64,000 nt of DNA from an uncultured Acidobacteriaceae bacterium. GTDB taxonomy: Bacteria > Acidobacteriota > Terriglobia > Terriglobales > Acidobacteriaceae. The stretch is from assembly GCA_963800145.1 (NCBI GenBank), contig CAWCZX010000003.1, forward strand, positions 9,880 to 73,879, in the 5' to 3' direction. Made by a program: the position numbers and the translations under genes. Of this stretch, positions 10,053 to 41,401 are shown one piece after another. Below the pieces are notes generated by a model. That model was not told where the DNA came from and searched no databases. It was given only the letters and a program-made list of their open reading frames with translations. Numbering within the stretch: position 1 is the first letter of the stretch; every line of letters begins with the position of its first letter.

Positions 10053-10072
10053 CTTGGATTGCATCTCGCTCT

Positions 10073-10103: not shown

Positions 10104-10146
10104 CCAACGGTGGTTACTTGTGAATCGTCCGTGTTATGGTTCAACC

Positions 10147-14124: not shown

Positions 14125-14128
14125 CAAC

Positions 14129-20496: not shown

Positions 20497-20510
20497 GATA
20501 CCCTCGATGT

Positions 20511-23633: not shown

Positions 23634-24232
23634 TGGGAATACCCCCCGGTCAGCGATAGCCTCAGACGGCTCGCTGAACGCCCTGGACTTACATGGGCAA
23701 CCAAAGGTCAATAAATGCGATGGTTATCTCGTCAGCACGATACTTGGACGACTTCGACCAACTTGCAGCAAAACGCTAGGGATTCACGACCTCAGTGGGA
23801 GTTACCTGCGGGAGAGCCACAGGGCCCTCGAATTTGCGACCTTCGTTCAGAGACATGCCGGCGGTTCAGGCGACGTTGGGGAAGTCGCGCTCACCGGTGC
23901 ATCATCATCGCAAATCTTCATTCGTCAGGCAAGTCATTCGGCGGGAAGTTCGGGGTGTCCGTCCAAAACGTCTGCCATTTGAGATGGAAGTGGCGACTTG
24001 TTGCGCCGGCACGCAGATTGGTTCGACCCCGGCAATCACCTATAACCCATTTGATATGTTCATTTAATGGAAGATGAGCCAAGTGTTTTCCCCTTAGGCG
24101 GGGAACGGCTTGCGGGTTTGCGCGTTGCACCACACCAGCAGACGCGAACTGTGGGAGTCGAGAATCGTACCTGCGGCATATTTTGCAGCGGCGATTTATT
24201 TTAGCCAAGGGCCCGACAACCCCGCTCCATGT

Positions 24233-25693
24233 CTACCCGGCTACTTGTTTGAGATCGGCGCGCTTGTCTTCGTAGGTCATGGAATAGGCAAGTAGATTTG
24301 GATCAGGTTCAGTGCCCCAATATTGGCAGGCGGCCTGGTACACGTCCGGCCACCAGTTGTGGTGGGCAGTGAGGCCGTCCTGTTTCCATTTCTTCCAGTC
24401 GACCAAAATCTTCGACCATGCTCGGTCACCAAATTCCATCGCTTCCACTTGAGTGCCAATCTCGGGTACGATCCACTCGCGTCCGATTTTGGCATGCAGA
24501 ACTTCGTCCGCCCAGTCATAGTCCTGAATTAACGCAGTCAGCGGATTTGCCGTGGCCATGGCCACTTCCCACTCATACTCCTTGCCGATCTTCCTGGGCA
24601 TAAGCCCCTGCTCGATCGTGAACAAGACAGCATGGCGCTCTTTTCGCGTCAGCATGGTATTCAGGCCCATTGACCAGGTAAAGTTGAACGGGATCATAGT
24701 CCAATCGATTCCCATAGAGACAAATCCAACTTCACCCATCATGGCGTGGCGAGCCTCATCCCAGAGTTGGCGTGTCATGTCGCGGTAATATCCCCAGGGC
24801 TTGTCGCGAGCTTCCACAATGATGCTTGCCATCATTTCAGGCACGTCGATTTCGCGCATGCGTTTGAAATAGAGCATGATCGTTTTGGGAAGCGGTTCGA
24901 TGCCCGGATCGAGAAGCATAGCTTCTGCATTGACGCCCATATTGTAGGGATCCTGGAATCGCGCATCGCGGTGCGGAACAGGGTCATATGTATAAGGAAC
25001 CGCGGAGGTTTTTCGCGCCAGGAGCTCCCCGGTCGGTTCCCTCTTCCCATCCAGGTCGCCCGCGGCAGCGAGCATGCGATCGAGCAGGTGAAGCCACTCG
25101 TGAAACTCTGCGCGCTGCTCATCCTTCACCAGGCACCGGGTCGCTTCGATTCCGTATTGCTGTATGTCTTGTATCTCGAGAAGTGTCAGGCGGCAGATAC
25201 GCCACGTAGGGTGATCGAAAAGCTTGTTCGTGTCGGCCATCAGGTTCTCAAGCGCGCGGACGAGGGCCGGCACCGCACACTCATACAAGCCCGAAATCAG
25301 CATTTCGGTGTTCGGCGCAGACAATATTTCATCGAAGAACATGTCAAGAGAGTCGTGAGGACAAACCTCTAGCCCATAGGGCGGTTGTCTCATCTCCTTT
25401 ACGCGCACGGCAAACTCGCCCACATGCTCCACGCAGTAGTGGGCATGCAGACTGAAGGCCATCTTCAATTCATAAAACGGCATGCTCGTAATGCGCGACA
25501 CAAAAATATGGTGGAGACGATTGAGAGACCAATGAATACGCTTCAGGCGCCCGACTGATTCGTTGACAGTCAATCCGGTGGAAACGACTTCGCGCATGGA
25601 ATGCAGGCCGACCAGAGGAGGAAGACCATCAAGGCCCTTATAGGAATCAATAGTGTTGATTGACGTGCTTGCATCGTTTCCGTTCTGTGTCAT
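24233..25693 (-). CDS. Ferritin-like diiron protein (DUF455-like C-terminal domain plus an N-terminal ferritin-like domain)
   Basis: EIDVPE, YYRDMTRQLWDEARH and DYDWADEVLHAKIG give two ExxH ligand motifs; the N-terminal half has VEHVGEFAVRVKEM. Strong GAAGGAGG RBS, 59 nt after the corrinoid gene stop. Confidence 0.65.
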   Translation of the reverse strand: MTQNGNDASTSINTIDSYKGLDGLPPLVGLHSMREVVSTGLTVNESVGRLKRIHWSLNRLHHIFVSRITSMPFYELKMAFSLHAHYCVEHVGEFAVRVKEMRQPPYGLEVCPHDSLDMFFDEILSAPNTEMLISGLYECAVPALVRALENLMADTNKLFDHPTWRICRLTLLEIQDIQQYGIEATRCLVKDEQRAEFHEWLHLLDRMLAAAGDLDGKREPTGELLARKTSAVPYTYDPVPHRDARFQDPYNMGVNAEAMLLDPGIEPLPKTIMLYFKRMREIDVPEMMASIIVEARDKPWGYYRDMTRQLWDEARHAMMGEVGFVSMGIDWTMIPFNFTWSMGLNTMLTRKERHAVLFTIEQGLMPRKIGKEYEWEVAMATANPLTALIQDYDWADEVLHAKIGREWIVPEIGTQVEAMEFGDRAWSKILVDWKKWKQDGLTAHHNWWPDVYQAACQYWGTEPDPNLLAYSMTYEDKRADLKQVAG

Positions 25694-25752
25694 GGCGAAT
25701 GCCTCCTTCAGTTACATCCTGCAAATGGACGACCCGCGGGATCTGAGCTCGG

Positions 25753-26385
25753 TCATCCGATCAGGCTCCTGACCAGGCCAACCGCGCCGCTGGCATTTTC
25801 GCTGTATCCGTCTGCACCAACCTCTTTGGCGTACTGCAAAGTGACCGGAGCGCCGCCAATCAAAACCTTCACGCGGGTACGCAGACCGGCGGTCTGCAGC
25901 GCTTCAATGGTGGTCTTCATGGCCGGCATGGTCACGGTGAGCAGCGCAGACATGCACACAATCTGCGGCTCCTGCTCGGCCACCGCGGCCACAAATTTTT
26001 CAGGTGCAACATCGGTGCCGAGATCGATCACATCGAATCCGCTTCCTTCAAGCATCGAAGCAACAATGTTTTTACCGATGTCGTGCAGGTCGCCCTTCAC
26101 TGTGCCGATGACTACTTTGGCAGACAGCTTCTCGCCGGCAGCCACCATCAACGGCCGCAGCACCTGCATCGCGCTCTTCATTGCGCGGCCTGCCAACAGG
26201 AGTTCCGGAACAAAATATTCCTCCTGCTCAAAAAGCCGTCCCACTTCGTCCATCGCCGGCACCATGGACTCGGCAATCAGCGCCATCGGTTCCGTGCCAG
26301 CTTCGATTTCTGCATTCGTTGCTGCAAGCGCTTTTTTTGCATCACCATTGAGAATTGCTTCGTAGAGTTCCTTGGATTGAGCCAT
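25753..26385 (-). CDS. Stand-alone corrinoid (cobalamin-binding) methyl-carrier protein, MtbC/MttC/MtvC-like
   Basis: B12 cap domain (MDEVGRLFEQEEYFVPELL) plus the DxHxxG motif GDLHDIGKNIV, SALL and IGGAP. Confidence 0.92.
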   Translation of the reverse strand: MAQSKELYEAILNGDAKKALAATNAEIEAGTEPMALIAESMVPAMDEVGRLFEQEEYFVPELLLAGRAMKSAMQVLRPLMVAAGEKLSAKVVIGTVKGDLHDIGKNIVASMLEGSGFDVIDLGTDVAPEKFVAAVAEQEPQIVCMSALLTVTMPAMKTTIEALQTAGLRTRVKVLIGGAPVTLQYAKEVGADGYSENASGAVGLVRSLIG

Positions 26386-26452
26386 GATTCACCTGCCAAA
26401 TGGAAATGCCGCGGGAACAAGTCAAACAACAAGCTGCATTATCAACACCGCC

Positions 26453-27478
26453 TCATGCGTTCACATGAGCTGAGCGGTCGCGAGCGAAGTTCACCATTGC
26501 ATCTACGTTTTCGTGGGGCGTATCGCGTACGATCTCGCATCCCGCAGCGATGATCCATTGTTCACCCACTTGTTGCCGGAGCACTTCAAGCGATTTCATG
26601 ATTGCTTCAGGAGATCCATTGCGCACGTCCCTCACCGGGTCCAGATTCCCTGCCAGGGTCTGTTGCGGGCCGGTCTGGGAGCGCGCTAGGTCCATGGCTA
26701 CGGGATAATCAATATCCACCAAGTCGCAACCCAGCTTGCCCAAGCCTTGGAGAATTCGGCGCGTATTCCCGCAGATGTGAAGACGGACTTTTGCCCCGCC
26801 GGCATGGATGGAGTCAACGAGTTTTTTCTCCCACGGCCACACAAATTCGTTGTAAATGCGTGGGCCCACCAGGGATGCGGCGGCATCTCCGATCCCAATA
26901 ATGTCTGCGCCAGCTTTGATCTGCGCGGACGCGAACCGAACCGCAATTTCCAGGGTGAACTCGAACAGATCTTGAACAAAGGCAGGGTCGTCGGAAAAAT
27001 CGATCATCAACCGGCTGATCCCGCGCAGGTCAGCAGCTTCGGCACAGGGGCCTTCCACCCAGCCCTCGACGAATAGTTTTTCCCCTGCATACTTCCGCAA
27101 CAGTTCGACTCCCCTGATGCGGTCTTCCATGCGTCCCCCAAGGATCGCGCCGGGAATTTTCAGTTGAGCAAGAACCGACTTTTCCTGCAAAAGCGCTTCT
27201 TCTTCGACAATCCCCGGAGGCCGGTCTTCATACCACTGGATCTTAGCGCCCAGATCAGTTGCTTCGCGGGTGGGGTCCGAGATCGCCGAGACATGGTCGA
27301 AGCCAAACATTTCGGCCGTCTTGGCCTGTGCTTCCGCCAGAATTCTGTAATCCCGGACATACTGCGCGTATTTGACGCCAAGAATATCCGCGGCAAACAT
27401 CATGGTGATGGGCATGCATGGAATGCGGTCAGTCTTTTGCCCGGCAAGAATTCCGAGAACTCGTTCGCGACCTGTCAT
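26453..27478 (-). CDS. UroD-fold corrinoid methyltransferase (MtaA/CmuA family)
   Basis: MTGRERV N-terminus, DPTREATDLGA, VEGPCAEAADLRG, GADIIGIGDAAAS, and the Zn-site pattern LHICG...AGCEI (H-x-C...C). Start may extend to 27511. Confidence 0.85.
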   Translation of the reverse strand: MTGRERVLGILAGQKTDRIPCMPITMMFAADILGVKYAQYVRDYRILAEAQAKTAEMFGFDHVSAISDPTREATDLGAKIQWYEDRPPGIVEEEALLQEKSVLAQLKIPGAILGGRMEDRIRGVELLRKYAGEKLFVEGWVEGPCAEAADLRGISRLMIDFSDDPAFVQDLFEFTLEIAVRFASAQIKAGADIIGIGDAAASLVGPRIYNEFVWPWEKKLVDSIHAGGAKVRLHICGNTRRILQGLGKLGCDLVDIDYPVAMDLARSQTGPQQTLAGNLDPVRDVRNGSPEAIMKSLEVLRQQVGEQWIIAAGCEIVRDTPHENVDAMVNFARDRSAHVNA

Positions 27479-27816
27479 AGCGTGCACGTTCATTTCAGAG
27501 ACGGGCGCCAACCCTCGGCTTTGCTTTTATCCGACGAGATATATGGGGCAAGCATCCGCCGCAATTGTGATCTTAGTTGCAAGCACCTCAACGATAGTCC
27601 AGAAGACCCACGGGTGTCCTGTCTTTGGTTGAAGAATTTCAAATTCCCGCTGACGGACTGGCAAGTTATTTACCACCGCCGAAAACCGTGAGAATCAGCC
27701 CCAATCTGCCGCTGCCCTCATTAGATGTTCGAGCGTAGAATTGCAGCTGCGTTCCGGCGGAATCATTGCTTCGATTTATCCTGTCCCCGGACAACGATCT
27801 ATCGGCGGGGAAAGTC

Positions 27817-28557
27817 ATGCGCTTTAAACTGATTAGCTGCCAGGTTCTCACCCGAGAAATCAGCTATCTTCTCGCCCGCTCACCTCACTCGATTGCGCCG
27901 GAGATCCTGACCATGGGGCTGCACGACCTAGGCGCTTCGATGCGCCCCTTTCTGCAGGAGAGGATTGATGCCGCGGATGGGGAAGGCTACGACGCGATTC
28001 TACTGGGATATGCGCTCTGCGGTAGAGGTACGGAGGGCCTGCGCGCGAGGAAGACGCAGATCGTCCTTCCCCGGGCACACGATTGCATCGGGTTATTGAT
28101 GGGGAGCCGTTCACGCTATCAGGCCTATTTCGATGCTCATCCCGGCGTTTACTTTCGATCCCCCGGCTGGCTTGAAAATCAAGGTCCGGGTGAAATTCTT
28201 CAGCCTGCCAATTCCTCAAAGCAGAACACGATTGGAGAACGCCGCAGCCGCGAAGAACTCATCGCGCAATACGGCGAAGAGAACGGAAACTATCTTTTTG
28301 AGCAGTTCAATCTCTTTCGTCGCCATTACTCAGGGTTGACCTATATCTCCACCAGTGTTGGACCGGAGGACGCCTATCGCAATCAGGCCCGTGCTGAAGC
28401 GGAAAAAGAGGGATGGGCGTTTGATGAAATCAAGGGCTCACTCACCCTGCTCGAACGGCTTGTCAACGGAGAGTGGAACTCCGCGGATTTTCTTGTCATT
28501 GGTCCCGGCCAGACGGTGCAGGACGTTTTGGGCGAGCCCGCCGTGGAAGCGATATGA
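27817..28557 (+). CDS. DUF1638 domain protein (commonly found beside corrinoid activation genes)
   Basis: SCQVL, GLHD, YDAILLGYALCGRG and PRAHDCIGLLMG; ATGA overlap with the downstream ASKHA gene. Confidence 0.8.
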   Translation: MRFKLISCQVLTREISYLLARSPHSIAPEILTMGLHDLGASMRPFLQERIDAADGEGYDAILLGYALCGRGTEGLRARKTQIVLPRAHDCIGLLMGSRSRYQAYFDAHPGVYFRSPGWLENQGPGEILQPANSSKQNTIGERRSREELIAQYGEENGNYLFEQFNLFRRHYSGLTYISTSVGPEDAYRNQARAEAEKEGWAFDEIKGSLTLLERLVNGEWNSADFLVIGPGQTVQDVLGEPAVEAI

Positions 28558-30050
28558 GCGCTGAGACGGTAAGGATTCGGCTGGAGCCGCTGTCGACAAC
28601 GGTCGAAGTGCCTTGGAATAGTTCGCTAAAGTCTGCGCTCTGCGTGCACGGGGTCGAATTTCCATGCGGGGGAATAGGTATTTGCGGTGGTTGCCGTTTT
28701 CGAGTTCTGGCTGGAGAGCTTCCGGTGACCGGGCAGGATGTTGCTGTCTTCTCGGCGATTGAGCTTGGCGACGGATGGCGGTTGGCCTGCCAGGCGCGCG
28801 CCGAGAGTTCCCTGGTGCTTGAGTGCAGTCAATGGAAAATGGACGTGCTGACCGATGATTCGGGCCTTTCCACCGCGGGAAAATCCGGGCTGGGAATTGC
28901 CATCGATCTGGGCACGACCACTGTTGCCGCGCAGTTGATCGATATGGCCACGGGCAACGTGCTCGCTGTGGAGACCTGCCTCAATCCACAAGCGTCGCAC
29001 GGCTCTGACGTGATGAGCAGAATCAAGGCAACCCTATCCGGAGTCGATCTGACGGCGTTGGTTCGCTCTGCAGTGGAGCAGATGATTGCAAAGCTGGCAT
29101 GCGGCCGCGAACAAGAGATCGTCGAGGTCGTTCTTGTCGGCAATACGGTGATGCATCATCTTTTTTGCGGACTTAATGTTGAGCCGCTCTCGCATGTGCC
29201 GTTCGAATCTCCTCACCCAGAAGTACAGGCCTTCGACTCCGGTGAACTCGGCTGGAAGTTGTCACGGGATTGCCGCGTGCGTTTTGCACGATGCCTCGGC
29301 GGATTTGTAGGTTCTGACATCCTTGCCGGAATGATTGCTGTCGGCATGCCGGTTTCAGTGGGCTTGATTGCGTTGATCGATCTTGGCACCAACGGAGAGA
29401 TCGCCATTGGCAATCATGATGGGATTGTCTGCGCGTCTACGGCGGCGGGGCCGGCCTTTGAAGCCGGTTCGATCCGCATGGGAATGCGCGCGGCGACGGG
29501 CGCTATCTCGCGTGTCTATCCCTTGCATGAGAGAATTTGTGCCGACGTAATTGGAGACGTAGACGCCAGGGGTATCTGCGGCAGTGGCCTGGTCGATGCG
29601 GTCGCAGTCGGGTTGCAAAGCGGGCGCATTCTGCCTTCTGGACGCATTGCCGGACAGACAAAGCTCTTTCCGATAAAGGATCCGGTCGTCCTCTACCAAT
29701 CGGATATTCGCGAACTGCAGTTGGCGAAGGGGGCCATCGCGTCCGGGTTCAGGCTCCTGCTTCGGCACCTGGGCACGAGCGCCGACCATCTGGAAAGCCT
29801 CTACCTGGCAGGGGCATTCGGCAATTACATGCAGATTGAAAGTGCCATTGGCATCGGGCTCATTGAGGCGCCTAAGCAGCGAATTCGCGCGGCCGGGAAC
29901 ACGGCTTTGCGCGGGGCCAAGATTCTGCTTTTGTCGGATGGTGAGCCATGCCTGCCGAGGATCGAACATATAAGTTTAGCCGCTGATCCTGATTTTCAGG
30001 ATGAGTTTTCCAGTTGCATGACGTTTCCCGAGATCGCGAGCGCAGTTTAA
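28554..30050 (+). CDS. ASKHA-family reductive activator of corrinoid proteins (RACo/RamA-like, DUF4445) with an N-terminal 2Fe-2S domain
   Basis: CGGIGICGGC...RLACQ 2Fe-2S motif; IDLGTTT, IDLGTNGEI, CASTAAGPAFE, GICGSG, LAGAFG and GNTALRGA. Confidence 0.9.
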   Translation: MSAETVRIRLEPLSTTVEVPWNSSLKSALCVHGVEFPCGGIGICGGCRFRVLAGELPVTGQDVAVFSAIELGDGWRLACQARAESSLVLECSQWKMDVLTDDSGLSTAGKSGLGIAIDLGTTTVAAQLIDMATGNVLAVETCLNPQASHGSDVMSRIKATLSGVDLTALVRSAVEQMIAKLACGREQEIVEVVLVGNTVMHHLFCGLNVEPLSHVPFESPHPEVQAFDSGELGWKLSRDCRVRFARCLGGFVGSDILAGMIAVGMPVSVGLIALIDLGTNGEIAIGNHDGIVCASTAAGPAFEAGSIRMGMRAATGAISRVYPLHERICADVIGDVDARGICGSGLVDAVAVGLQSGRILPSGRIAGQTKLFPIKDPVVLYQSDIRELQLAKGAIASGFRLLLRHLGTSADHLESLYLAGAFGNYMQIESAIGIGLIEAPKQRIRAAGNTALRGAKILLLSDGEPCLPRIEHISLAADPDFQDEFSSCMTFPEIASAV

Positions 30051-30127: not shown

Positions 30128-32398
30128 ATGACGATCAGTACCAGCCCACCGGTCATTCTCGACTACAGTCTCACCGGCCTGAACGCTACTCTCGCGGTGG
30201 AGAGAGGGCTGGCCGAGGCTGATTGGTACCAATGCGGTGTACCGCGAGAGACGATGCGCAAACTTCTCGAGCGGCGAAACGGTCCTGCAATCCGCGACAC
30301 GATGCTCTGGTTTGCGCTCATTCTGGGTAGCGGATTCGCCACCTATGTCTTGTGGGGCACCGGTTGGGCGATCCTGCCTTACTTTGTCTACAGTGTCCTC
30401 TACGCGTCAACATCTGATTCGCGCTGGCATGAAACTGGGCACGGCACGGCATTCAAGACAGACTGGATGAATAATGCGCTCTATGAGATCGCTTCGTTCA
30501 TGGTGATGCGCGAATCCACGGTCTGGCGATGGAGCCACAACCGGCATCACAGCGACACGATCATCGTTGGACGAGACCCTGAAATCGCTGTGCCGCGCCC
30601 ACCGGATTTGAAGGGCGTCATCCTCTCGTTCTTCAATCTCGGTGTATATCCGAAGTATTTCAAGCACATTCTTCTGCACTCGGCGGGACACATGACGGCT
30701 GCTGAAAAGACTTTCATACCCGAAATGGAATATTCCGCCGTATATTGCAGGGCGCGCGTTTATGTTTCGATCTACGCCTCGGTCATTAGTCTCGCCATCT
30801 TAAGCCGCAGTGTGCTGCCGCTGCTGTTTGTGGGATTCACTAACCTGTTCGGCACATGGCTTCTGGTTGTTTATGGGCTCACTCAGCATGCAGGTCTCGC
30901 AGAAAACGTCCTGGACCACCGTCTTAACTGCCGCACGGTGTACATGAACCCTCTTCACCGCTATCTCTACTGGAACATGAACTACCACGTTGAACACCAC
31001 ATGTTCCCGCTGGTCCCTTATCACGCACTCCGGAAGTTACATGATGCTGTGAAAAACGACTGTCCGACGCCCTATACAAGTCTCTTTGCTGCCTGGTGTG
31101 AGATCGCCCCAACCATTCTTAGACAGGTTAAAGATCCCGCCTATCACGTCAAGCGCCGTTTGCCCACCAGCTATGCTGCAGTCAATGCGCACTCTCACGT
31201 CTCCAACTCCGAACCCGACACTGCGGGCTGGGTGAGAGCGTGCTATCGAGGCGACCTGGTTGCAGCGGACATTATCCGCTTTGACCATGGCCGAAAGAGC
31301 TTTGCACTTTGCCGTGATGAGCAGGGCCGGCTTCACGCCATTGACGGAGTCTGCACGCACGGCAACACCCATCTTTCCGAGGGCTTGATCGTGGGAAATA
31401 TGATCGAGTGCCCAAAGCACAACGGACGTTTCAATCTTATCGACGGTTCGCCTGCCCGCGTGCCGATCTGCCGCGGAATCGCCACCTATCCGATAGAGGA
31501 AAGGGGCGAGCAGATCTATATCAACGTTGCGAACGCTCGCGGAGTCGGGGCGCGATCGCACAAGACTCTCCATTTCCGCGTCCTGAGCAATCAAAGCGTT
31601 GCCACGTTTATCAAAGAACTCGTTCTCGAGCCCCTGAATGACGCAGAACCCATCGGCTTTACACCGGGCGATTACCTGCAACTGGATATTCCCCGCTACG
31701 ATGCCATCCGCTTCAGGGACTTTAATATTCCTGAGCCGTTCGCAACGGTTTGGGAGCGTCAGCATGTTTTTGATCTGGTTGCCAGCAATCCCGAGGGCGG
31801 GCGCCGCAACAACTATTCGATTGCAAGTAATCAGTGGACCGAGCGCACATTACGCTGCAACGTGCGCATCGCGACTCCTCCGCCCGGGCAGGACTGCGCT
31901 CCGGGCATTGGGTCCAGCTACATCTTCAGCCTCAGACCCGGTGACCTCGTCTCTGGCATCGGGCCCTTTGGGGATTTCCATATCAAGCCGACATTACGCG
32001 AAATGGTTTACATCGGCGGGGGTGCGGGAATGGCCCCACTGCGCGCCCACATCTCACACCTTCTCGAGAATGAACGGACAGCGCGCAAGATCAGCTACTG
32101 GTATGGTGCGCGTTCCAGGCAGGAGGTTTTCTATCAAGAATATTTCGCTCAACTGGCCAAGGAGCACCATAACTTTGCATTTCACGTCGCCTTGTCCTCA
32201 CCGCAACCTGAGGACGAGTGGACGGGCCCCGTCGGTTTTATCCATGACGTCGTTCTGGAACAATACCTGATCGAGCATACTCATCCCGAAGCCTCAGAGT
32301 ATTATCTTTGCGGCCCTCCGCTGATGATCAAAGCATGCACGCGAATGCTTGCGAACCTGGGAGTTTCTGACCATCAGGTTTCGTACGATGAATTCTAA
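30128..32398 (+). CDS. Three-domain fusion: MocD-like fatty-acid-desaturase-family diiron oxygenase + MocE-like Rieske ferredoxin + NqrF-like FAD/NAD(P)H reductase
   Basis: His boxes HETGH, HNRHH and HVEHH with TM helices; Rieske CTH...CPKH; FNR motifs GDYLQL, RRNYSIAS, GPFGDF, IGGGAGMAP, YWYGARS, LCGPP and C-terminal YDEF, all in one frame. Confidence 0.88.
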   Translation: MTISTSPPVILDYSLTGLNATLAVERGLAEADWYQCGVPRETMRKLLERRNGPAIRDTMLWFALILGSGFATYVLWGTGWAILPYFVYSVLYASTSDSRWHETGHGTAFKTDWMNNALYEIASFMVMRESTVWRWSHNRHHSDTIIVGRDPEIAVPRPPDLKGVILSFFNLGVYPKYFKHILLHSAGHMTAAEKTFIPEMEYSAVYCRARVYVSIYASVISLAILSRSVLPLLFVGFTNLFGTWLLVVYGLTQHAGLAENVLDHRLNCRTVYMNPLHRYLYWNMNYHVEHHMFPLVPYHALRKLHDAVKNDCPTPYTSLFAAWCEIAPTILRQVKDPAYHVKRRLPTSYAAVNAHSHVSNSEPDTAGWVRACYRGDLVAADIIRFDHGRKSFALCRDEQGRLHAIDGVCTHGNTHLSEGLIVGNMIECPKHNGRFNLIDGSPARVPICRGIATYPIEERGEQIYINVANARGVGARSHKTLHFRVLSNQSVATFIKELVLEPLNDAEPIGFTPGDYLQLDIPRYDAIRFRDFNIPEPFATVWERQHVFDLVASNPEGGRRNNYSIASNQWTERTLRCNVRIATPPPGQDCAPGIGSSYIFSLRPGDLVSGIGPFGDFHIKPTLREMVYIGGGAGMAPLRAHISHLLENERTARKISYWYGARSRQEVFYQEYFAQLAKEHHNFAFHVALSSPQPEDEWTGPVGFIHDVVLEQYLIEHTHPEASEYYLCGPPLMIKACTRMLANLGVSDHQVSYDEF

Positions 32399-32488: not shown

Positions 32489-33088
32489 TTAAATTCCAGG
32501 TACAGGCGGGCACCCGGGGAACTCGGTTAGAAACGTGTTTCCCTTGTAACCCAAATACTTGATACCGATCTTGCTCGTGAAGAACCCGTCAGCGGTCATG
32601 TTCCTCAACAGCGAGAAGAAATCCACGGCGTCACGCAGGCTCTCGTCTTGTATTGCATTCTTGTTATAAGCGATCTGGTCGACAATCTCTGCCTGTTGTG
32701 GCGGTGCGCAATCGAGATAGGCCTTTCCGTACCGGCTCGAGCATGTTGAATCGAGCCACGTGAACCCGGCTCTCAATCTGGATTGATATTCCGCGTTCTC
32801 GCTGGTGAGCAGATCGATAAACTCCGGAGCACCAGCCTCAATCGCGCCACCGCATTCCGGGTCGGCCGGCAGAATGGTCTCGCACAGCGCCTGCAGCGTT
32901 TCGAATTGATGTGCCGCGAAGAACTTCGGAACATAGCCCCCTGCCTTGGGCTCTGCCCTTTCTGCCTCGATCAGATTGTGGGCGTATTCGGCAGCCTCAA
33001 GCGGGATGACTCGGAGGACCGAACCCGCCACCGCTCCGATGCTCAGTGATCTTAATACAGCGCGCCGTGTAATGGATTCTCGGGTCAT
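32489..33088 (-). CDS. Gluconate 2-dehydrogenase subunit 3 family protein with Tat signal (small subunit of a GMC sugar dehydrogenase)
   Basis: Twin-arginine SITRRAVLR; LCETILP...GAIEAGAPEFID; FFSLLRNMTADGFFTSKIGIKYLGY.GN. Confidence 0.85.
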   Translation of the reverse strand: MTRESITRRAVLRSLSIGAVAGSVLRVIPLEAAEYAHNLIEAERAEPKAGGYVPKFFAAHQFETLQALCETILPADPECGGAIEAGAPEFIDLLTSENAEYQSRLRAGFTWLDSTCSSRYGKAYLDCAPPQQAEIVDQIAYNKNAIQDESLRDAVDFFSLLRNMTADGFFTSKIGIKYLGYKGNTFLTEFPGCPPVPGI

Positions 33089-33097
33089 GCCTTTCGC

Positions 33098-34819
33098 TTA
33101 GAGCTCCCCTTTCTTTGCCTGGTCGAGCAAATACTCTGAGGTTCTCCACGAAAGGGCCATGATGGTCAGAGTGGGATTCTTATCCGGATTGGTCACGAAT
33201 GGAGCGGCGTCGGCCACGAACAGGTTCTTAACGTCGTGCGCCTGGCAATTGCTATTCAGCACCGACGTCTTTGCATCTTTGCCCATGCGAACCGTTCCCA
33301 ACTCATGAATGATTTCTCCGCCTCCCGCAATGCCGTTGGGCCGCGGTGCTTCGCTCTTTGGCAGCGGGTGCCGGCGCGTGCCCGCTATCACGGTCCCGCC
33401 TGCGGCTTCGACGATGGAGCGGAAAGTGGCCTGCATATCGGCAGCCATCTTCAACTCGTTCTCGCCTGCCTGCCAATGAAAGCGCAGCACTGGAATGCCC
33501 CACTGATCTTTCACGTTGGGGTCGAGTTCGCAGAAGCAGTTTTCGTTGGGGATCATCTCGCCTCGTCCGCTGAACCCAATAAACGTGCCGTAAGAGCTGC
33601 GGCACTTTTGCTTCAGGCCGATGCCATAGCCTTCTTGCTCTTCGCACACTCCGTCAAACCCGCCAACCCCCGGCATGTCGCGACCGCCGCCAAACTCGAT
33701 GTGATATCCGCGCAGGAAGTCGTTCTTCTTGCCGAACCGCCACCAGGGCATATACAGATGCATGCCGCCAACGCCATCGTGATTGTGCGCAGGCATTTTT
33801 TCAAGTTGAGGGAAGTACCCCGCGAGATCGCTACCCACCGAATCGGTGAGATAGCGCCCCACCACTCCCGATGAATTCGCAAGCCCATTGGGAAAGCTCG
33901 GCGAGCGTGAATTCAACAGCAGGCGTGCGGACTCACAAGCACTCGCCGCTACCACAACGGCCCTGGCATAGACGCGCTGTTCGCTCTTCGTCGGCTTGTC
34001 GATGTAGGAAACGGCCTCCGCTTTGCCGCTTTGGCCCAGCACGATTTCGCGGGCCATCGCATTGGGAATCATCGTCAGCCGACCGGTGGCGGTTGCTGGT
34101 GGAATCATCACCTGGCTTGAGCTGAAGTTGGAGGCGGATCTGCAGCCGCGTCCGCATTGCGCGCAGTAGTGACACGCGTCGCGGCCATTCAGGGGCTCGG
34201 TTAAAATGGCGAGCCGCGACGGGATGCACGTGATGTTCAGCTGGTCGCAAGCCTTTTTGATCAGGATCTCGGTGCAGCGCGGTTTAGGTGGCGGCAAAAA
34301 AACGCCATCCGGAGAATTGGGGATGTTCTCCTTCGATCCGAATACACCGATGTAGGCTTCGACCTTGTCGTAGTAGGGAGCCAGTTCCGCATAAGTGATT
34401 GGCCAATCGTCGCCCATTCCGTCAATTGAGCACGCTCTGAAATCTGCCGGCCCGAAGCGCAGCGCGATGCGCCCCCAATGATTGGTTCGGCCTCCCTCAA
34501 TCCGTGACCGGAACCAGCGAAACGATGAGCCGGGCGCCGTTGTATACGGTTCGCCTTCGATCTCCCAGAACCCGTTCGGTGCCATGAACTCGTTGCCGAT
34601 TCCGCGCTGTTTGCCACCAATACCCACACCGCGATGGGCCAGTTGATAGGGCCACACATGCTCCTTGAAATCCTTGTCCGGGTCGAGTCGCGGTCCGGCT
34701 TCAAGCATCACCACGTTTAGCCCACCTTCGGTGAGGACCTTTGCCGCGGTCCCGCCTCCTGCGCCGGAACCAATAATACAGACGTCAAAAACCTTCCTGG
34801 GCGGGTTCAGTTGGGCCAT
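33098..34819 (-). CDS. GMC-family flavoprotein oxidoreductase (glycoside 3-dehydrogenase-like large subunit)
   Basis: IGSGAGGG FAD motif, GGRTNHWGR, DDWPITYAELAPYYDKVE, CHYCAQCGRGC, HELGTVRMG and KNPTLTIMAL. Confidence 0.88.
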   Translation of the reverse strand: MAQLNPPRKVFDVCIIGSGAGGGTAAKVLTEGGLNVVMLEAGPRLDPDKDFKEHVWPYQLAHRGVGIGGKQRGIGNEFMAPNGFWEIEGEPYTTAPGSSFRWFRSRIEGGRTNHWGRIALRFGPADFRACSIDGMGDDWPITYAELAPYYDKVEAYIGVFGSKENIPNSPDGVFLPPPKPRCTEILIKKACDQLNITCIPSRLAILTEPLNGRDACHYCAQCGRGCRSASNFSSSQVMIPPATATGRLTMIPNAMAREIVLGQSGKAEAVSYIDKPTKSEQRVYARAVVVAASACESARLLLNSRSPSFPNGLANSSGVVGRYLTDSVGSDLAGYFPQLEKMPAHNHDGVGGMHLYMPWWRFGKKNDFLRGYHIEFGGGRDMPGVGGFDGVCEEQEGYGIGLKQKCRSSYGTFIGFSGRGEMIPNENCFCELDPNVKDQWGIPVLRFHWQAGENELKMAADMQATFRSIVEAAGGTVIAGTRRHPLPKSEAPRPNGIAGGGEIIHELGTVRMGKDAKTSVLNSNCQAHDVKNLFVADAAPFVTNPDKNPTLTIMALSWRTSEYLLDQAKKGEL

Positions 34820-35133
34820 CCATTCTCTCCGACTGCGAAAAAATATTCTTGAAACGGGGAAATCTGCAGTACTCGCTCCAGGCCAGCATCAGCGGGCATG
34901 TCTTGGTATTCACTTCGAAACACGCGCTTCTCTTTCTGATAATCGATCAATATACGCCCCGCGCCTTTACCCACGCGACGTTTTTCTCGCCCCCGATCCA
35001 GGGAAAGCGAAGAAGTTGCCAAAAGATTTCGGGAATCCTCTTGTTGTTCTCCAATTGACTTGACCGGGATTCCATTTGACACCCCGGTAATTTGTCCGAA
35101 ACCTCCACTCGACTTTCAGATAGAATCCTGCCT

Positions 35134-36051: not shown

Positions 36052-36197
36052 ACCCAGCTACGGTACGGAGGGGTCCATGACGCCTGCATACGGGCCGTTC
36101 AGCGAATGTGTACCTAACTTCTCGAAAGCGTGCGTCACTCACATACAGCCGAGTCTAAATTCCTTCGTTTATCTGGAAAGCAAGAGGCTAACTCGAA

Positions 36198-38014: not shown

Positions 38015-41000
38015 TTACTCGGCCCCCTTTGTTTTCGCCACCGCATAGAGTTTCACGGGGCCCAGGAGCCCTGAAGACAACAACGGAGAATTGGCCTTGT
38101 AAGGCTTCATCGGCGTAAAGGTATATTTCGTTGTCGCGCCCGGTTGCTCATCGCCAATTAGCCTGTTCACCCATGCATTGGTGACTCTGATGGTTACGTC
38201 GTTCGCGCCGGGTTTCAATGCACCGGTCACATCGACTCGATACGGTGCATGCCAAACGATTCCGAGAGCCTTTCCATTCACCGTCACTTCCGCCAGGTTC
38301 TTGACGTCGCCCAGGTCGATCCAGACCCTAGCGCCATTTTTGAACCAGTCATCTGAGGCCTGAACCGTCTTCGTGTACGTGCCCGCTCCGGAGAAGTACT
38401 TGATGCCGGTGTCGTCGCTGTCGTTCCACGCTATCAGCTTGTCAAACGTGGTGGACGACGGCGCCCCGCGGTCAGCTTGAAAGCTTACGTTCCATGGTCC
38501 ATCCACCGTGGTTAATTCAGTCTCTGCCGGCTTGGGCAATGTTTGCGAACTCTGCTTTGCCTCGTTGCGGAACACAACGAAAAGCGTGCCCCACGGTTCG
38601 AATTGGAGCGGCACCGTAGTGCGACCATCCGCTATCTTGTACGAGGCCGGCTCAATCTTGCCCGTGTCGGAGTGCCAAAGTTCAGGGACCTTGCCTGTGA
38701 TGCGAAAGCTGGCGTCGACCGAAGAGTTTTGATCGCCGCGATTATCCACGAAGTAAATGTCGGCGTCGGCCGTATGCCGATGAAGGAAGAGGATCTGCTG
38801 ACCGTTGTCCGTATGACTATATTCAAAATCCGGAGAAACTTTCAATTCTTTGAGCGCGGCTTCAGCGTTCGCCCCTGCGTAAACTTTTCCCTTCCCGACA
38901 ACGTGTACACCCGCTCCGTCGCCAAACAGTTCATCGCTGAGCTTTTTGAATTCGGATTGATCGTCGGCGAGGCTTGGCGTATCGGTTGGCTTTTCGCCAG
39001 CTACAACCGCTCCCTGCTCAACCAGTTTGTGAATTGCGCGAAGCACCGGAAGCGACATGTGCTTGCTGTATGGATCAAGCGCAAGAACACGATACTTCAT
39101 ACCGCTTCCGGTTGTGATGTAGCCATTTTCCGCGCCCAACTCATGGATCAGCCCATCGGCGTTGATGTAGTCGAAGTTGTATCCGGCCGGCACGTCCGGC
39201 GATTTAGCAGCAAACTCAGCGGTGACGTTCGAGTCTTCGCCGTAGAAATAAATCACGTCCGCGACGAAGCGGCCTTGCTGCAACAGGAAGGCGTTGCGAG
39301 CCAGGTAATCGATCCACACATGCGCATCTTCGGCCCATGTTTCATTGCGATTGAACCACTGACCGCAAGGTCCTAAAGTCAGCCCCGGGACCTTGCCGAT
39401 AAGTGGCTGATGTGCCGACTCGTGAATCACAATCCGGTTAATGCCGTTCAGGAATTCCATGTCCGCGGTAGGCTTGAGTGTTGCAGGTGACCACGCCCAG
39501 GCCGTTGTCTGGTCGCATGACGTCATTGACTCCGCCGCGGCGAGGTTCTGTCCATAGATGTGCGCCACCGACGCCGATTCCCGGTCATCCGCGTTGTAGC
39601 CATACTGAACTTTGTTGATGCCCGGCTTCTGTGTCCACATCGCGCTCATGGGGATATCATCAAGCTTCTTCACTTCCATACCATCGGCAATGAAGGCGCG
39701 CCCCTCTTCGTGTGATTCTCCATAGTGGCCCATCCCTCTCGCCTTGAGCGATGCCTCCACCTGGCCGTAGTGCTCATCCGCGGTCAGATCGGCGATGGTC
39801 TTACGCAGGTCCCACAGGAATTGGTCGCTGGCTTGGGCGCTCTCGACCACGCGGCCCGTGAGAACCGGCAGCCATGGAGTGGGATCGTAGCCGCGGCGCT
39901 TTTTGAACTGCTCGATCATATTGTCGGTCCAGTTCTGCGCCCCGGCCTCCCAGCTATCAGTGACTACGTACTTGATGCCGCGTTTGCCCATCATGTCGGC
40001 ACCCACCGTGTCTTTGTAGCTGTTCAGATAGCCGTCCATGTAGTGCTTCACAAATCCCGCATTTAGCTTGTCGACTTCAAGGCCCGTGGCTTCTGCCGTT
40101 GCAGGGTGATTGGCAATGCCAAGCAGCGAATAGCCGAACCGCAAAACCACCCAGTTGCCCGGCGGCGGCGTCCATTCCAGAGTGCCATCCGCATGCATCT
40201 TGCCGGTCAGATCCACCACGTCACTCTTCTGAATTGCATCCGCCGGCGCGACTTCAGGTGTCGCAAACTGATACAGATCCGGCATCTGGTTGAAGGCCGC
40301 CTTCTCTTCAAAGCGATTGACACGCGCGCCCGGATGTAGCACCAACTCTGAAATCTCATGATTTGTTGGAGGCGGTGGAGTAGGAAAGCCCATAGCGGCA
40401 AAGGGATTCGGAGGCACAGGCTGCGTCTTGAGCGTCACCCGAAAGAACTTGGCTGTAACTGGAGCAAATGCGATCGTATGCTCTGTTGATCCGCTCTTGG
40501 GGATATCCACAACCACGTGATAGTTCTGCCCATCGTCACTTGCCTCAAGCGCCCGGCCGCTCTCTCCTGTCGACGGCACAAATGCATCGAACGGGCTTTT
40601 GCCGCCCACAACAATGGTGAGTGCGCGAATCGTCTGAGCTTGCGGGTATTCGAACTGGATCCACGCCTTATCGCCGATCTCCTTGGCCATGGGCAGCGAA
40701 ACTGTCTTCACCAGATCGCCATCGCTCAACAGCGCCGGATTGATCGTTCCGCCACTCGAGGTAATTGTCGGCTGTAATTGGTCAGCTGCGACTTCATTCG
40801 CGGGGACCTTGTATGCGACAACCACACTGTCCGCATAGAACTCGGGTGCCTTGAACGGCGTTCCCAGGGCACCTCCAAGATCTTCAATCGGCAGATTCTG
40901 GAACGCGCCCGTATTTGAGGGCGGATGAGCCAGCGTGCCCGTGAATGGCTGCCCACCTTCCACGCGCGTCTCGCTCCACACATACTTTTTCATTGCTTCG

Positions 41001-41401
41001 TTCGCGGGAACCCATGGACCACCAGTCTCGCTCCAGCCCGGCGAACCGGCGATAGCTTCCTCCAACCCGAGTTGATCCGCCAGCGTGGTAGCGTATTTGA
41101 AGGCGTCCTTCCACTCCGGCGTCATATAAGCCAGTCGCTTGTCCACGACCTGGGGTGTGAAAAGTGCTGCGTCGAAGTTCTGGAATCCACCCAGGCCGGC
41201 CCGATGCATCCACTCCTCATCGAGTTTGATGCCTTCCTTGGTAATGTTGCCGTTCATCCAGTGCCACCAGACACGGGGCCGAGCGCTCGCGGGCGGATTT
41301 TCGAAGCCACTTTTGAGCGGATCAGCTTGTTTTTGCGCGGTTGCCACTCCGAGGCTCAACACCATCGTTAGACTTGCAGTGACGATCTTAGTGAATCTCA
41401 T
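38015..41401 (-). CDS. Secreted GH106-type alpha-L-rhamnosidase-like glycoside hydrolase
   Basis: Signal peptide; ARPRVWWHWMNGNITKEGIKLD, GSPGWSETGGPW, DSWEAG, VASVAHIYG-like segment (SASVAHIYGQN..AAES), GINRIVIHESAHQP, C-terminal IDLGDVKNLAEV..NGK.LG..W..PYRVDVT and SGLLGPV. Confidence 0.82.
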   Translation of the reverse strand: MRFTKIVTASLTMVLSLGVATAQKQADPLKSGFENPPASARPRVWWHWMNGNITKEGIKLDEEWMHRAGLGGFQNFDAALFTPQVVDKRLAYMTPEWKDAFKYATTLADQLGLEEAIAGSPGWSETGGPWVPANEAMKKYVWSETRVEGGQPFTGTLAHPPSNTGAFQNLPIEDLGGALGTPFKAPEFYADSVVVAYKVPANEVAADQLQPTITSSGGTINPALLSDGDLVKTVSLPMAKEIGDKAWIQFEYPQAQTIRALTIVVGGKSPFDAFVPSTGESGRALEASDDGQNYHVVVDIPKSGSTEHTIAFAPVTAKFFRVTLKTQPVPPNPFAAMGFPTPPPPTNHEISELVLHPGARVNRFEEKAAFNQMPDLYQFATPEVAPADAIQKSDVVDLTGKMHADGTLEWTPPPGNWVVLRFGYSLLGIANHPATAEATGLEVDKLNAGFVKHYMDGYLNSYKDTVGADMMGKRGIKYVVTDSWEAGAQNWTDNMIEQFKKRRGYDPTPWLPVLTGRVVESAQASDQFLWDLRKTIADLTADEHYGQVEASLKARGMGHYGESHEEGRAFIADGMEVKKLDDIPMSAMWTQKPGINKVQYGYNADDRESASVAHIYGQNLAAAESMTSCDQTTAWAWSPATLKPTADMEFLNGINRIVIHESAHQPLIGKVPGLTLGPCGQWFNRNETWAEDAHVWIDYLARNAFLLQQGRFVADVIYFYGEDSNVTAEFAAKSPDVPAGYNFDYINADGLIHELGAENGYITTGSGMKYRVLALDPYSKHMSLPVLRAIHKLVEQGAVVAGEKPTDTPSLADDQSEFKKLSDELFGDGAGVHVVGKGKVYAGANAEAALKELKVSPDFEYSHTDNGQQILFLHRHTADADIYFVDNRGDQNSSVDASFRITGKVPELWHSDTGKIEPASYKIADGRTTVPLQFEPWGTLFVVFRNEAKQSSQTLPKPAETELTTVDGPWNVSFQADRGAPSSTTFDKLIAWNDSDDTGIKYFSGAGTYTKTVQASDDWFKNGARVWIDLGDVKNLAEVTVNGKALGIVWHAPYRVDVTGALKPGANDVTIRVTNAWVNRLIGDEQPGATTKYTFTPMKPYKANSPLLSSGLLGPVKLYAVAKTKGAE

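What the first reader, a model, noticed from the sequence alone, without database searches (positions are those of the whole stretch)
30128..32398. Self-sufficient single-chain membrane oxygenase: desaturase-family diiron + Rieske + NqrF-like reductase
Seen: all three domains lie in one 756-aa frame with intact His boxes, Rieske ligands (about 31350-31420) and FAD/NAD motifs. The reductase resembles the NqrF flavin domain but lacks its plant-type 2Fe-2S domain and anchor, with a Rieske centre in that position. Established: rhizobial mocD, mocE and mocF are separate genes, and MocF is a different reductase type. Inference: an NADH-driven stand-alone hydroxylase/demethylase, also of biocatalytic interest.
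Basis: partly seen in the sequence, partly recalled or inferred. Interest (0 to 1): 0.7.

Follow-up and report, generated by a model that had tools for sequence, protein, structure and literature searches.

The report
Single-chain MocD-type membrane oxygenase
One gene joins a membrane di-iron oxygenase to its own Rieske iron-sulfur carrier and NADH-flavin reductase. The family is real, widespread, untested and usually mislabelled as a sodium-pump subunit, and its neighbours suggest it removes methyl ethers from sugars using oxygen.

Summary
ORF 30128-32398 (+) encodes 756 aa in three domains. These are a FA_desaturase-family membrane domain with three intact His boxes, a ferredoxin-type Rieske domain (ligands at nt 31352-31420), and an NqrF-type FAD/NADH domain. 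The NqrF-type domain lacks NqrF's anchor and plant-type 2Fe-2S.

It is not an artefact. Thousands of ~760-aa homologues with the same three domains occur in Acidobacteriota, Verrucomicrobiota, Bacteroidota, Kiritimatiellota, Planctomycetota and a betaproteobacterium, at 60-91% identity.

The first two domains are 53% and 40% identical to adjacent, separately encoded MocD-like and MocE-like genes of rhizobial plasmids. There the reductase is the unrelated MocF type.

Context across 114 loci is sugar catabolism, not lipid metabolism. It includes aldose 1-epimerase, a novel TIM-barrel partner, AraC regulators, MFS sugar porters, and rhamnosidase or rhamnose genes (a GH106 lies in this window). 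It also shows C1/methyl handling: corrinoid methyltransferase modules, as in this window, formaldehyde and formate dehydrogenases, and in one locus a close homologue of the P450 6-O-methyl-galactose demethylase.

Best reading (confidence about 0.5): an NADH/O2-driven, self-sufficient O-demethylase for methylated sugars. The substrate is unproven. I rate it a new variant of a known kind, of moderate to high interest.

The parts
30128..32398 (+). Complete ORF of the three-domain fusion (756 aa, P0001)
30128..31177 (+). Membrane di-iron oxygenase domain (residues ~1-350), MocD-like, FA_desaturase family. It has four hydrophobic helices, at about residues 58-95 and 211-251.
   Evidence: Pfam PF00487 at 111.6 bits. 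53% identity over 339 aa to an R. etli MocD-like protein. Hydropathy and AF2 helices.
30428..30442 (+). His box 1, HETGH (residues 101-105)
   Evidence: invariant
30536..30550 (+). His box 2, HNRHH (residues 137-141)
   Evidence: invariant
30986..31000 (+). His box 3, HVEHH (residues 287-291)
   Evidence: invariant
31220..31537 (+). Rieske [2Fe-2S] ferredoxin-type domain (residues ~365-470), MocE-like
   Evidence: Pfam Rieske 4e-16. TIGR02377 at 93.5 bits. PDB sequence hits to naphthalene, toluene and biphenyl dioxygenase ferredoxins. 40% identity to a MocE-like protein.
31352..31420 (+). Rieske ligands C409-T-H411 ... C428-P-K-H431. There is no extra disulfide Cys pair, so this is the low-potential ferredoxin type.
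   Evidence: invariant
31571..32395 (+). NqrF-type FAD/NADH reductase domain (residues 482-756). Motifs: RNNYS at nt 31805-31819, GGGAGMAP at 32015-32038, CGP at 32309-32317.
   Evidence: TIGR01941 at 330 bits, model positions 131-403. 2r6h at 281 bits. Foldseek TM 0.93-0.96 at 46-49% identity.
27766..30050 (+). Upstream genes on the same strand: DUF1638 (27766-28557) and the corrinoid reductive activator RACo (28473-30050). RACo ends 77 nt before the fusion. The order DUF1638-RACo-(GalM)-fusion is syntenic with relatives L152 and L098.
24233..27511 (-). Divergent genes: an MtaA-like URO-D methyltransferase (26453-27511), a B12-binding corrinoid protein (25753-26385) and a 486-aa DUF455-like putative di-iron protein (24233-25693). 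This is associated context and is not shown to act with the fusion.
38015..41401 (-). GH106 alpha-L-rhamnosidase, 5.6 kb downstream. This is context that matches the rhamnose link seen in other loci.
   Evidence: Pfam PF17132 at 1144 bits

Best explanation
The gene encodes a self-sufficient, membrane-anchored monooxygenase of the MocD/MocE lineage.

**Proposed electron path**
1. NADH reduces FAD in the C-terminal NqrF-type domain.
2. Single electrons pass to the central Rieske [2Fe-2S] domain.
3. They then reach the His-box di-iron site of the N-terminal four-helix membrane domain, on the cytoplasmic face.
4. The di-iron site activates O2.

**Proposed reaction**
The most likely reaction is hydroxylation of the methyl group of an O-methylated sugar that has been imported into the cytoplasm. 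The hemiacetal formed would fall apart into the free sugar and formaldehyde, giving an oxidative O-demethylation. The best substrate guess is a methylated deoxyhexose or hexose released from rhamnose- or galactose-containing glycans.

**Status of each step**
- Shown from sequence: the three domains, all metal and flavin ligands, the fusion itself and its breadth.
- Inferred: the electron path, the use of NADH, the demethylation chemistry and the substrate class.
For: **Architecture and ligands**
- Domains and motifs.
- NqrF-type domain at 46-49% identity, TM 0.93-0.96.

**Homology**
- 53% and 40% identity to adjacent MocD-like and MocE-like genes. 417 plasmid records hold such relatives (273 cover at least 80% of the query), and in the listed annotated hits the two are adjacent.
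- mocDEF is required for catabolism of the methyl ether rhizopine (PMC10107442).

**Context in 113 other unique loci**
- A TIM-barrel partner directly downstream in 50 loci (median gap 8 bp).
- Aldose 1-epimerase directly upstream in 36.
- AraC regulators in 56.
- MFS sugar porters in 14.

**Operon-level links to rhamnose**
- Inside a rhaD-I-STPQ-M-K operon in Verminephrobacter.
- Overlapping a GH78 gene in Chthoniobacter.
- Inside GH78/GH106 PULs in Mucilaginibacter and a Prolixibacteraceae genome.
- A GH106 gene in this window.
- Rhamnose markers lie near 12 of 114 loci, against 2.8% background in this genome (p about 1e-4).

**Links to methyl/C1 handling**
- Corrinoid modules (B12 protein, RACo, DUF1638, +/- MtaB) in 7 of 114 loci including this one, against 0.7% background.
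- FdhA-like formaldehyde dehydrogenase in 4-6 loci.
- Mo-formate dehydrogenase/FdhD in 3 loci.
- In L161, a P450 plus ferredoxin scoring 378 bits to P450ZoGa, the 6-O-methyl-galactose demethylase, sits divergently next to GalM-fusion-c1.
Against: - No member of the fused family, and to my knowledge no MocD, has been assayed in vitro. The demethylase role of MocDE rests on genetics.
- This window and its whole genome lack the two commonest partners, the GalM-type epimerase and the c1 TIM barrel.
- The enrichment figures use one genome as background and treat related loci as independent.
- The P450 link is a single locus.
- Roughly half of the loci show none of the informative neighbours.
- The AF2 inter-domain geometry is unreliable (pTM 0.53), so cofactor distances could not be checked.
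- The membrane domain has no significant structural match.
- A water-soluble substrate for a four-helix membrane enzyme is unusual.
Confidence: 0.5

Rival explanations
1. It is a cyclitol methyl-ether demethylase acting on pinitol, ononitol or a rhizopine-like compound. That would be the same job proposed for rhizobial MocDE, feeding an inositol pathway.
For: - Its closest annotated relatives are MocD/MocE-like pairs.
- In Acidiphilium pACMV1 these pairs sit with Gfo/Idh/MocA and sugar-phosphate isomerase genes typical of inositol catabolism.
- The c1 partner family also follows mocDEF-like genes there (163 bits).
- MFS Sugar_tr porters include inositol carriers (general knowledge).
Against: - The fused clade is flanked by aldose 1-epimerase, which acts on aldoses and not cyclitols, in 36 loci.
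- It is also flanked by rhamnosidases and rhamnose genes.
- No iol or Gfo/Idh/MocA genes appear among the conserved neighbours or in this window.
Confidence: 0.15
2. It is a sugar or small polar metabolite oxygenase that does not demethylate. One example would be C-H hydroxylation or desaturation of a deoxy sugar such as rhamnose.
For: - The sugar and rhamnose context does not by itself specify a methyl ether.
- The FA_desaturase superfamily performs hydroxylation, desaturation and epoxidation (general knowledge).
Against: - In Verminephrobacter the canonical rhamnose pathway is already complete in the same operon. The added genes therefore more likely feed it.
- The recurrent corrinoid methyltransferase, formaldehyde/formate dehydrogenase and P450ZoGa-like neighbours point to a methyl group.
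Confidence: 0.15
3. It is a membrane lipid or hydrocarbon desaturase/hydroxylase (acyl-lipid, hopanoid, alkane) that merely carries its own redox partners.
For: - The Pfam family is FA_desaturase and the domain is an integral membrane protein.
- AlkB-AlkG is among the top, non-significant, structural matches.
Against: - No lipid, fatty-acid or alkane genes appear among the conserved neighbours in 113 loci.
- It is 53% identical to MocD-like proteins but only marginally similar to bacterial DesB (E 1.5e-5).
- Its distribution is patchy and accessory: 2 of 151 genomes of its family, 4 of 401 of its phylum. That fits a catabolic trait, not membrane homeostasis.
Confidence: 0.07
4. It serves the adjacent corrinoid system directly. 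It might supply low-potential electrons to RACo, or oxidatively process the corrinoid or its methyl donor.
For: - It lies 77 nt downstream of RACo on the same strand.
- The order DUF1638-RACo-(GalM)-fusion recurs in L152 and L098.
Against: - About 94% of fusion loci have no corrinoid genes.
- The di-iron oxygenase domain would be superfluous for electron supply.
- RACo-type activators carry their own 2Fe-2S domain.
Confidence: 0.03

Closest known systems
MocD / MocE / MocF of rhizobial rhizopine (3-O-methyl-scyllo-inosamine) catabolism, and the many MocDEF-like cassettes on alpha- and betaproteobacterial plasmids
   Same: - The membrane His-box oxygenase is 53% identical and the Rieske ferredoxin 40% identical.
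- The logical electron chain is the same: reductase, then Rieske, then di-iron.
- A c1-type TIM barrel follows the cassette in Acidiphilium.
   Different: - Here there is one polypeptide instead of three genes.
- The reductase is an NqrF/FNR-fold domain, not the MocF-type pyridine-nucleotide-disulfide oxidoreductase (no similarity).
- The context is aldose and rhamnose genes, not inositol genes.
- The Rieske domain scores below the MocE family cut-off (93.5 against 136.15).
Two-domain MocD-Rieske fusions (~474-498 aa)
   Same: They share the first two domains in the same order. They are the nearest non-identical architecture, at 41-58% identity to the oxygenase domain (P0123, P0129, P0140, P0142).
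   Different: They lack the reductase domain. The three-domain form collapses into a single 50%-identity cluster (P0121), which suggests one later fusion event.
NqrF, subunit F of Na+-translocating NADH:quinone reductase
   Same: The FAD/NADH domain is 46-49% identical and superposes at TM 0.93-0.96. It scores above the NCBIfam equivalog cut-off.
   Different: - No N-terminal anchor and no plant-type 2Fe-2S.
- No adjacent nqr genes or NqrF paralogue; other nqr subunits were not searched.
- The database names 'NqrF' seen are mislabels.
P450ZoGa / CYP236A 6-O-methyl-D-galactose demethylase with ferredoxin and reductase (PMC6292453)
   Same: The proposed reaction type is the same: hydroxylation of a sugar O-methyl group, then loss of formaldehyde. 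A close homologue lies beside the fusion operon in L161.
   Different: It is an unrelated soluble haem-thiolate enzyme with separate redox partners. There is analogy but no homology.
Self-sufficient fusions of other oxygenases: AlkB-rubredoxin and ferredoxin-reductase-AlkB fusions, P450 BM3, P450 RhF (from my own knowledge, not tested here)
   Same: They follow the same principle of fusing the redox chain to the catalytic domain. AlkB belongs to the same His-box superfamily.
   Different: The carrier differs (rubredoxin or plant-type ferredoxin or FMN against Rieske), as do the domain order and the substrates (alkanes, fatty acids).

Membership tests
Membrane fatty-acid desaturase / alkane hydroxylase superfamily (PF00487) | Profile match above the curated gathering score | tested here: met
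   111.6 bits against 29.7, residues 79-320
Membrane fatty-acid desaturase / alkane hydroxylase superfamily (PF00487) | Three His boxes (HX3-4H, HX2-3HH, HX2-3HH) | tested here: met
   HETGH, HNRHH and HVEHH are present and invariant in 35 sequences
Membrane fatty-acid desaturase / alkane hydroxylase superfamily (PF00487) | Fold resembling solved members (AlkB, SCD1) | tested here: inconclusive
   The domain model has pLDDT 67.6. AlkB-AlkG (8f6t) ranks 4th at TM 0.39, E 0.5. No match reaches E <= 0.001.
MocD/MocE/MocF ferredoxin-oxygenase system | MocD-type oxygenase sequence | tested here: met
   53% identity over 339 aa to an annotated MocD-like protein. 417 plasmid records match at about 50%. 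The genetically studied MocD of S. meliloti L5-30 itself was not compared.
MocD/MocE/MocF ferredoxin-oxygenase system | MocE-family Rieske ferredoxin (TIGR02377 cut-off) | tested here: not met
   93.5 bits, below the cut-off of 136.15, although 40% identical to a MocE-like protein
MocD/MocE/MocF ferredoxin-oxygenase system | Three separate polypeptides with a MocF-type FAD-dependent pyridine-nucleotide-disulfide reductase | tested here: not met
   It is a single chain with no similarity to the MocF-like protein, and the reductase is of NqrF type
MocD/MocE/MocF ferredoxin-oxygenase system | Activity on 3-O-methyl-scyllo-inosamine; moc/iol gene context | tested here: not met
   The context test failed: there are no moc or iol genes among the window neighbours or the conserved neighbours. 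Activity is not testable with these tools.
NqrF (TIGR01941) | Score above the equivalog cut-off | tested here: met
   330.4 bits against 295. This explains the database mislabel.
NqrF (TIGR01941) | N-terminal membrane anchor plus plant-type 2Fe-2S domain (model positions 1-130) | tested here: not met
   Only model positions 131-403 are matched
NqrF (TIGR01941) | Encoded in an nqrABCDEF operon | tested here: not met
   The neighbours are corrinoid and GMC genes. No other NqrF-like sequence above 29% identity exists in the genome.
Rieske non-haem iron oxygenase (alpha subunit) | Rieske domain followed by a mononuclear-iron catalytic domain | tested here: not met
   The Rieske domain is about 100 aa and of ferredoxin type. 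No catalytic-domain family was hit.
Carbohydrate O-demethylase (functional class; only P450 CYP236A is characterised) | O2-dependent release of formaldehyde from a methoxy sugar | not testable with these tools
   Only context supports this

The most novel reading that the evidence does not exclude
The ~760-aa fusion family would be a second, widespread class of carbohydrate O-demethylase, unrelated to the P450 system. It would be membrane-bound, di-iron and fully self-sufficient.

In loci like this one it would be paired with a cobalamin-dependent methyltransferase module. The same methoxy sugars could then be demethylated with O2 (giving formaldehyde) or without O2 (giving methyl-corrinoid). 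Candidate substrates include 3-O-methyl-rhamnose from moss, fern, charophyte and cyanobacterial glycans.
Probability: 0.3. Interest if true: 0.8.

Novelty: new variant of a known kind. Interest (0 to 1): 0.6.

Why it matters
**Carbon turnover.** Methyl ethers block ordinary sugar catabolism. The only characterised sugar O-demethylase is a marine P450. If this family does that job, it would explain how abundant soil, peat and freshwater glycan degraders (Acidobacteriota, Verrucomicrobiota, Bacteroidota) use methylated sugars. It would also add a formaldehyde source to their carbon budgets.

**Enzymology.** As far as I could find, this would be the first His-box membrane di-iron oxygenase carrying a Rieske centre and a flavin reductase in one chain. 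One gene could be expressed and driven with NADH alone, which makes a notoriously hard enzyme class easier to study and to use as a biocatalyst.

**Annotation.** Thousands of database entries named 'NqrF' are wrong.

Tried and rejected
- **Assembly artefact.** Rejected by breadth.
- **Obligate link to the window's corrinoid genes.** Rejected. Only 7 of 114 loci have them, although that is enriched.
- **Literature.** Seven full-text searches found no paper on this fusion or on any non-P450 sugar demethylase. One search was spoiled by word-start matches to 'moce...'.
- **The look-up of encoding contigs.** It failed for two Flavobacteriaceae proteins, probably because of start-codon choice.
- **Promoter/terminator scan.** It gave nothing above shuffles. 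No clear Shine-Dalgarno sequence lies before the ATG.
- **Full-length AF2 model.** It has pTM 0.53, so inter-domain distances were not used. Foldseek on it returns only the NqrF-type domain.
- **Membrane-domain model.** It gave no significant PDB match.
- **c1 partner.** It has no Pfam or NCBIfam hit. Only a profile search tied it weakly to xylose-isomerase-like TIM barrels (AsbF, 4e-6).
- **FdhA link.** It is real but holds in only 4-6 loci.
- **Pure vertical inheritance.** Rejected. The same-genus genome G280 has a copy only 73% identical, in a different operon.
Full report
**1. Observation**

The frame 30128-32398 (+) is open for 756 codons from an ATG.

- Pfam finds FA_desaturase (residues 79-320, 111.6 bits), Rieske (368-455) and NAD_binding_1 (629-737), all far above their gathering scores.
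- NCBIfam aligns residues 482-756 to positions 131-403 of the 405-position nqrF model at 330 bits. The part of that model holding the anchor and plant-type 2Fe-2S is missing. NCBIfam also aligns residues 368-467 to the MocE family model at 93.5 bits, below its cut-off of 136.
- All are invariant in a 35-sequence alignment spanning five phyla, whose mean column identity is 72%.
- Against solved structures, residues 482-756 match NqrF FAD domains (2r6h, 281 bits) and residues 365-470 match dioxygenase Rieske ferredoxins. Residues 1-360 have no solved relative.
- The AF2 model's C-terminal domain superposes on NqrF FAD-domain crystals at TM 0.93-0.96 and 46-49% identity.

**2. Not an artefact, and not rare**

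- A search of 5.8 billion proteins gave 7165 hits among 8000 scored candidates. The best 120 are 739-777 aa, share the same three Pfam domains and are 73-91% identical. Sources name them 'NqrF' or 'MocE subfamily Rieske protein'.
These lie in Acidobacteriaceae, many Verrucomicrobiota, Bacteroidota, Kiritimatiellota, Phycisphaerae and Verminephrobacter, at 60-78% identity.
- A tree of 114 copies mostly follows phylum: 8 label changes against a minimum of 4 and a shuffled mean of 43.
- The gene is nonetheless accessory. It is present in 2 of 151 genomes of the window's GTDB family, 4 of 401 of its phylum and 2 of 5 of its genus.
- The same-genus copy is only 73% identical and sits in a different operon.

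**3. What it is related to**

- The first 467 residues find 417 plasmid records at about 50% identity, 273 of them covering at least 80% of the query. In the listed annotated hits the match spans two adjacent genes, annotated as fatty acid desaturase/MocD-like and MocE family ferredoxin.
- In R. etli and Acidiphilium the pair is followed by a FAD-dependent pyridine-nucleotide-disulfide oxidoreductase, the MocF type.
- The fusion is 53% identical to the MocD-like protein over 339 aa and 40% identical to the MocE-like protein over 103 aa. It shows no similarity to the MocF-like protein.
- mocDEF is one transcription unit of three genes needed for rhizopine catabolism (PMC10107442).
- An exhaustive search with the oxygenase domain gave 350 clusters at E <= 1e-30:
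  - The three-domain form collapses to one 50%-identity cluster (P0121).
  - Several two-domain oxygenase-Rieske proteins of 474-498 aa exist (P0123, P0129, P0140, P0142, P0253).
  - Many stand-alone proteins of about 330-370 aa also exist.
- The likely history is MocD plus MocE, then a two-domain fusion, then capture of an NqrF-type flavin domain.

**4. Gene neighbourhood**

I pooled 113 unique loci plus the window and clustered all ORFs.

*Conserved neighbours*
- A ~300-aa protein with no Pfam or NCBIfam match ('c1'), directly downstream on the same strand in 50 loci, with a median gap of 8 bp.
- An aldose 1-epimerase directly upstream in 36 loci.
- AraC regulators in 56 loci.
- MFS sugar porters in 14 loci.
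- URO-D family proteins in 16 loci.

*The c1 partner*
- c1 is a divergent xylose-isomerase-like TIM barrel: a profile search hits AsbF at 4e-6.
- Its family also follows the mocDEF-like genes of Acidiphilium (163 bits).

*Operon-level cases*
- In Verminephrobacter, the fusion and c1 close a complete rhaD-rhaI-rhaSTPQ-rhaM-rhaK operon.
- In a Chthoniobacter genome, the order is GalM-fusion-GH78 with overlapping stop and start codons, and rhaM lies divergent.
- In Mucilaginibacter, the gene lies in a PUL with GH78, SusC/D, a GH78-like gene and GH106.
- In a Prolixibacteraceae genome, it lies between GH106/GH78-like genes and two GH38 genes, with a URO-D gene nearby.
- In Oleiharenicola lentus, it follows two GH42 genes, AraC and GalM.
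- The window itself has a GH106 alpha-L-rhamnosidase 5.6 kb downstream (1144 bits).

*Rhamnose enrichment*
- Rhamnose markers lie in 12 of 114 loci, against 2.8% of positions in this genome (binomial p about 1e-4).
- Caveat: the background comes from one genome and the loci are related.

**5. Methyl and C1 signals**

- The B12-binding protein, RACo and DUF1638, usually with MtaB (528 bits to PF12176), lie next to the fusion in six other loci from Acidobacteriaceae and Verrucomicrobiota. That makes 7 of 114 loci, against 0.7% background (p about 2e-5).
- The order DUF1638-RACo-(GalM)-fusion is syntenic between the window, its closest relative L152 (78%) and an Opitutia genome.
- FdhA-like formaldehyde dehydrogenases lie beside the operon in 4-6 loci.
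- FdhD plus a molybdopterin formate-dehydrogenase-like gene lie there in 3 loci.
- One Verrucomicrobiia locus, seen in two independent samples, carries all of the following:
  - three URO-D genes, a B12 protein, DUF1638 and RACo;
  - an AraC regulator, then a ferredoxin and a P450;
  - GalM-fusion-c1;
  - two further genes, then FdhD and a Mo-oxidoreductase;
  - a second B12-MtaB-URO-D set.
- That P450 scores 378 bits (4.7e-112) to PDB 6G5O/6G5Q. The next best P450 scores 148 bits. 6G5O/6G5Q is P450ZoGa, the 6-O-methyl-D-galactose demethylase (PMC6292453).
- Elsewhere in the window's genome, two more URO-D paralogues sit with two MFS porters, a rhamnogalacturonase-like gene and a GH88-type hydrolase.

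**6. Specifics of this window**

- The fusion follows RACo by 77 nt on the same strand.
- Divergent from them are an MtaA-like URO-D gene, the corrinoid protein and a 486-aa DUF455-like protein.
- Unlike its relatives, this genome has no MtaB, no GalM-type epimerase and no c1.
- The fusion can therefore work without c1.
- This copy's partners differ from the family norm, which lowers confidence for this particular copy.

**7. Mechanism**

- Shown: three domains with complete ligand sets in one chain.
- Inferred:
  1. NADH passes electrons to FAD in the NqrF-type domain.
  2. FAD passes them to the Rieske cluster. This lacks the disulfide cysteines of bc1-type centres, so it is the low-potential ferredoxin type.
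  3. The Rieske cluster passes them to the di-iron site.
  4. O2 is activated and the O-methyl group is hydroxylated.
  5. The hemiacetal collapses to sugar plus formaldehyde.
- The demethylation step rests on the MocDE relationship and on the neighbourhood evidence above. The substrate class, methylated aldoses and possibly methyl-rhamnose, rests on neighbourhood alone.
- 3-O-methyl-rhamnose is documented in bryophyte and fern arabinogalactan-proteins, charophytes and cyanobacterial polysaccharides (papers listed). That fits the peat, soil and lake origin of the carriers, but it is only a guess.

**8. Rivals**

- Cyclitol methyl-ether demethylase: 0.15.
- Non-demethylating sugar oxygenase: 0.15.
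- Lipid or hydrocarbon enzyme: 0.07.
- Helper of the corrinoid system: 0.03.
- Artefact: below 0.01.

**9. Novelty**

- No paper in the searchable library describes this fusion or any non-P450 sugar O-demethylase.
- It is a new variant of a known kind: the MocDEF-type oxygenase made single-chain, with a swapped reductase.
- Earlier agents of this scan reached the same reading on orthologues in other genomes. I read those notes after forming mine, and they are not independent evidence.

**10. Limits**

- There is no reliable inter-domain geometry (pTM 0.53).
- The membrane domain has no significant structural match.
- There is no biochemical evidence anywhere in the family.

Noticed in passing
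window 24233-25693 (-): A 486-aa protein with EXXH-type motifs and only a faint DUF455 match (E 0.025). It is the last gene of the URO-D/B12 operon. Homologues at 72-75% identity lie near the fusion in L130 and L137, and a 491-aa DUF455-like gene lies near it in Oleiharenicola (L154). Its function is unknown.
   Followed up: partly
window 25753-30050: This corrinoid module has the B12 protein, one MtaA-like URO-D, DUF1638 and RACo but no MtaB. Syntenic relatives (L152, L027, L028, L098) carry MtaB in that place. The listed RACo ORF overlaps DUF1638 by 85 nt, so its true start is probably the internal ATG near 28554.
   Followed up: partly
L158 (own genome, C2:810000-828000), about 7898-17071: A second methyl-related sugar locus on the minus strand. 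It holds a rhamnogalacturonase-A-like gene, an MFS gene, a 179-aa ORF, two URO-D paralogues, an MFS sugar porter and a beta-lactamase/GH88 fusion.
   Followed up: partly
L161 1-22292: A Verrucomicrobiia 'demethylation island'. It holds four URO-D genes, two B12 proteins, MtaB, RACo, DUF1638, a P450ZoGa homologue with ferredoxin, the fusion operon, and FdhD plus a Mo-oxidoreductase.
   Followed up: partly
L025:10241-11125 and 49 other loci (alignment A1): 'c1' is an unannotated ~300-aa TIM-barrel family with invariant E131, H133, R134, D159, S161, H162, H192, R194, Q202 and E245. It is apparently translationally coupled (median gap 8 bp) to the fusion and is also found after mocDEF-like genes in Acidiphilium pACMV1. 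Its role is unknown.
   Followed up: partly
window 32489-34819 (-): A GMC oxidoreductase plus a Gluconate_2-dh3 subunit with a twin-arginine-like leader, convergent with the fusion. This pair is not conserved next to the fusion elsewhere.
   Followed up: no
window 35092-37877 (+) and 41926-44481 (-): An aldose 1-epimerase-family gene and an L-lactate permease lie between the fusion and the GH106 gene, and a GH31 gene lies beyond it. Lactate is an end product of rhamnose catabolism, so this may be one sugar-use neighbourhood.
   Followed up: no
window 20511-23711 (-): A 1066-aa ORF with no Pfam match, upstream of a VWA-domain protein (19384-20607).
   Followed up: no
L163 (same-genus genome G280): A congeneric genome carries the canonical GalM-fusion-c1 operon with a copy only 73% identical to the window's. 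Two lineages of the gene therefore circulate within one genus.
   Followed up: yes
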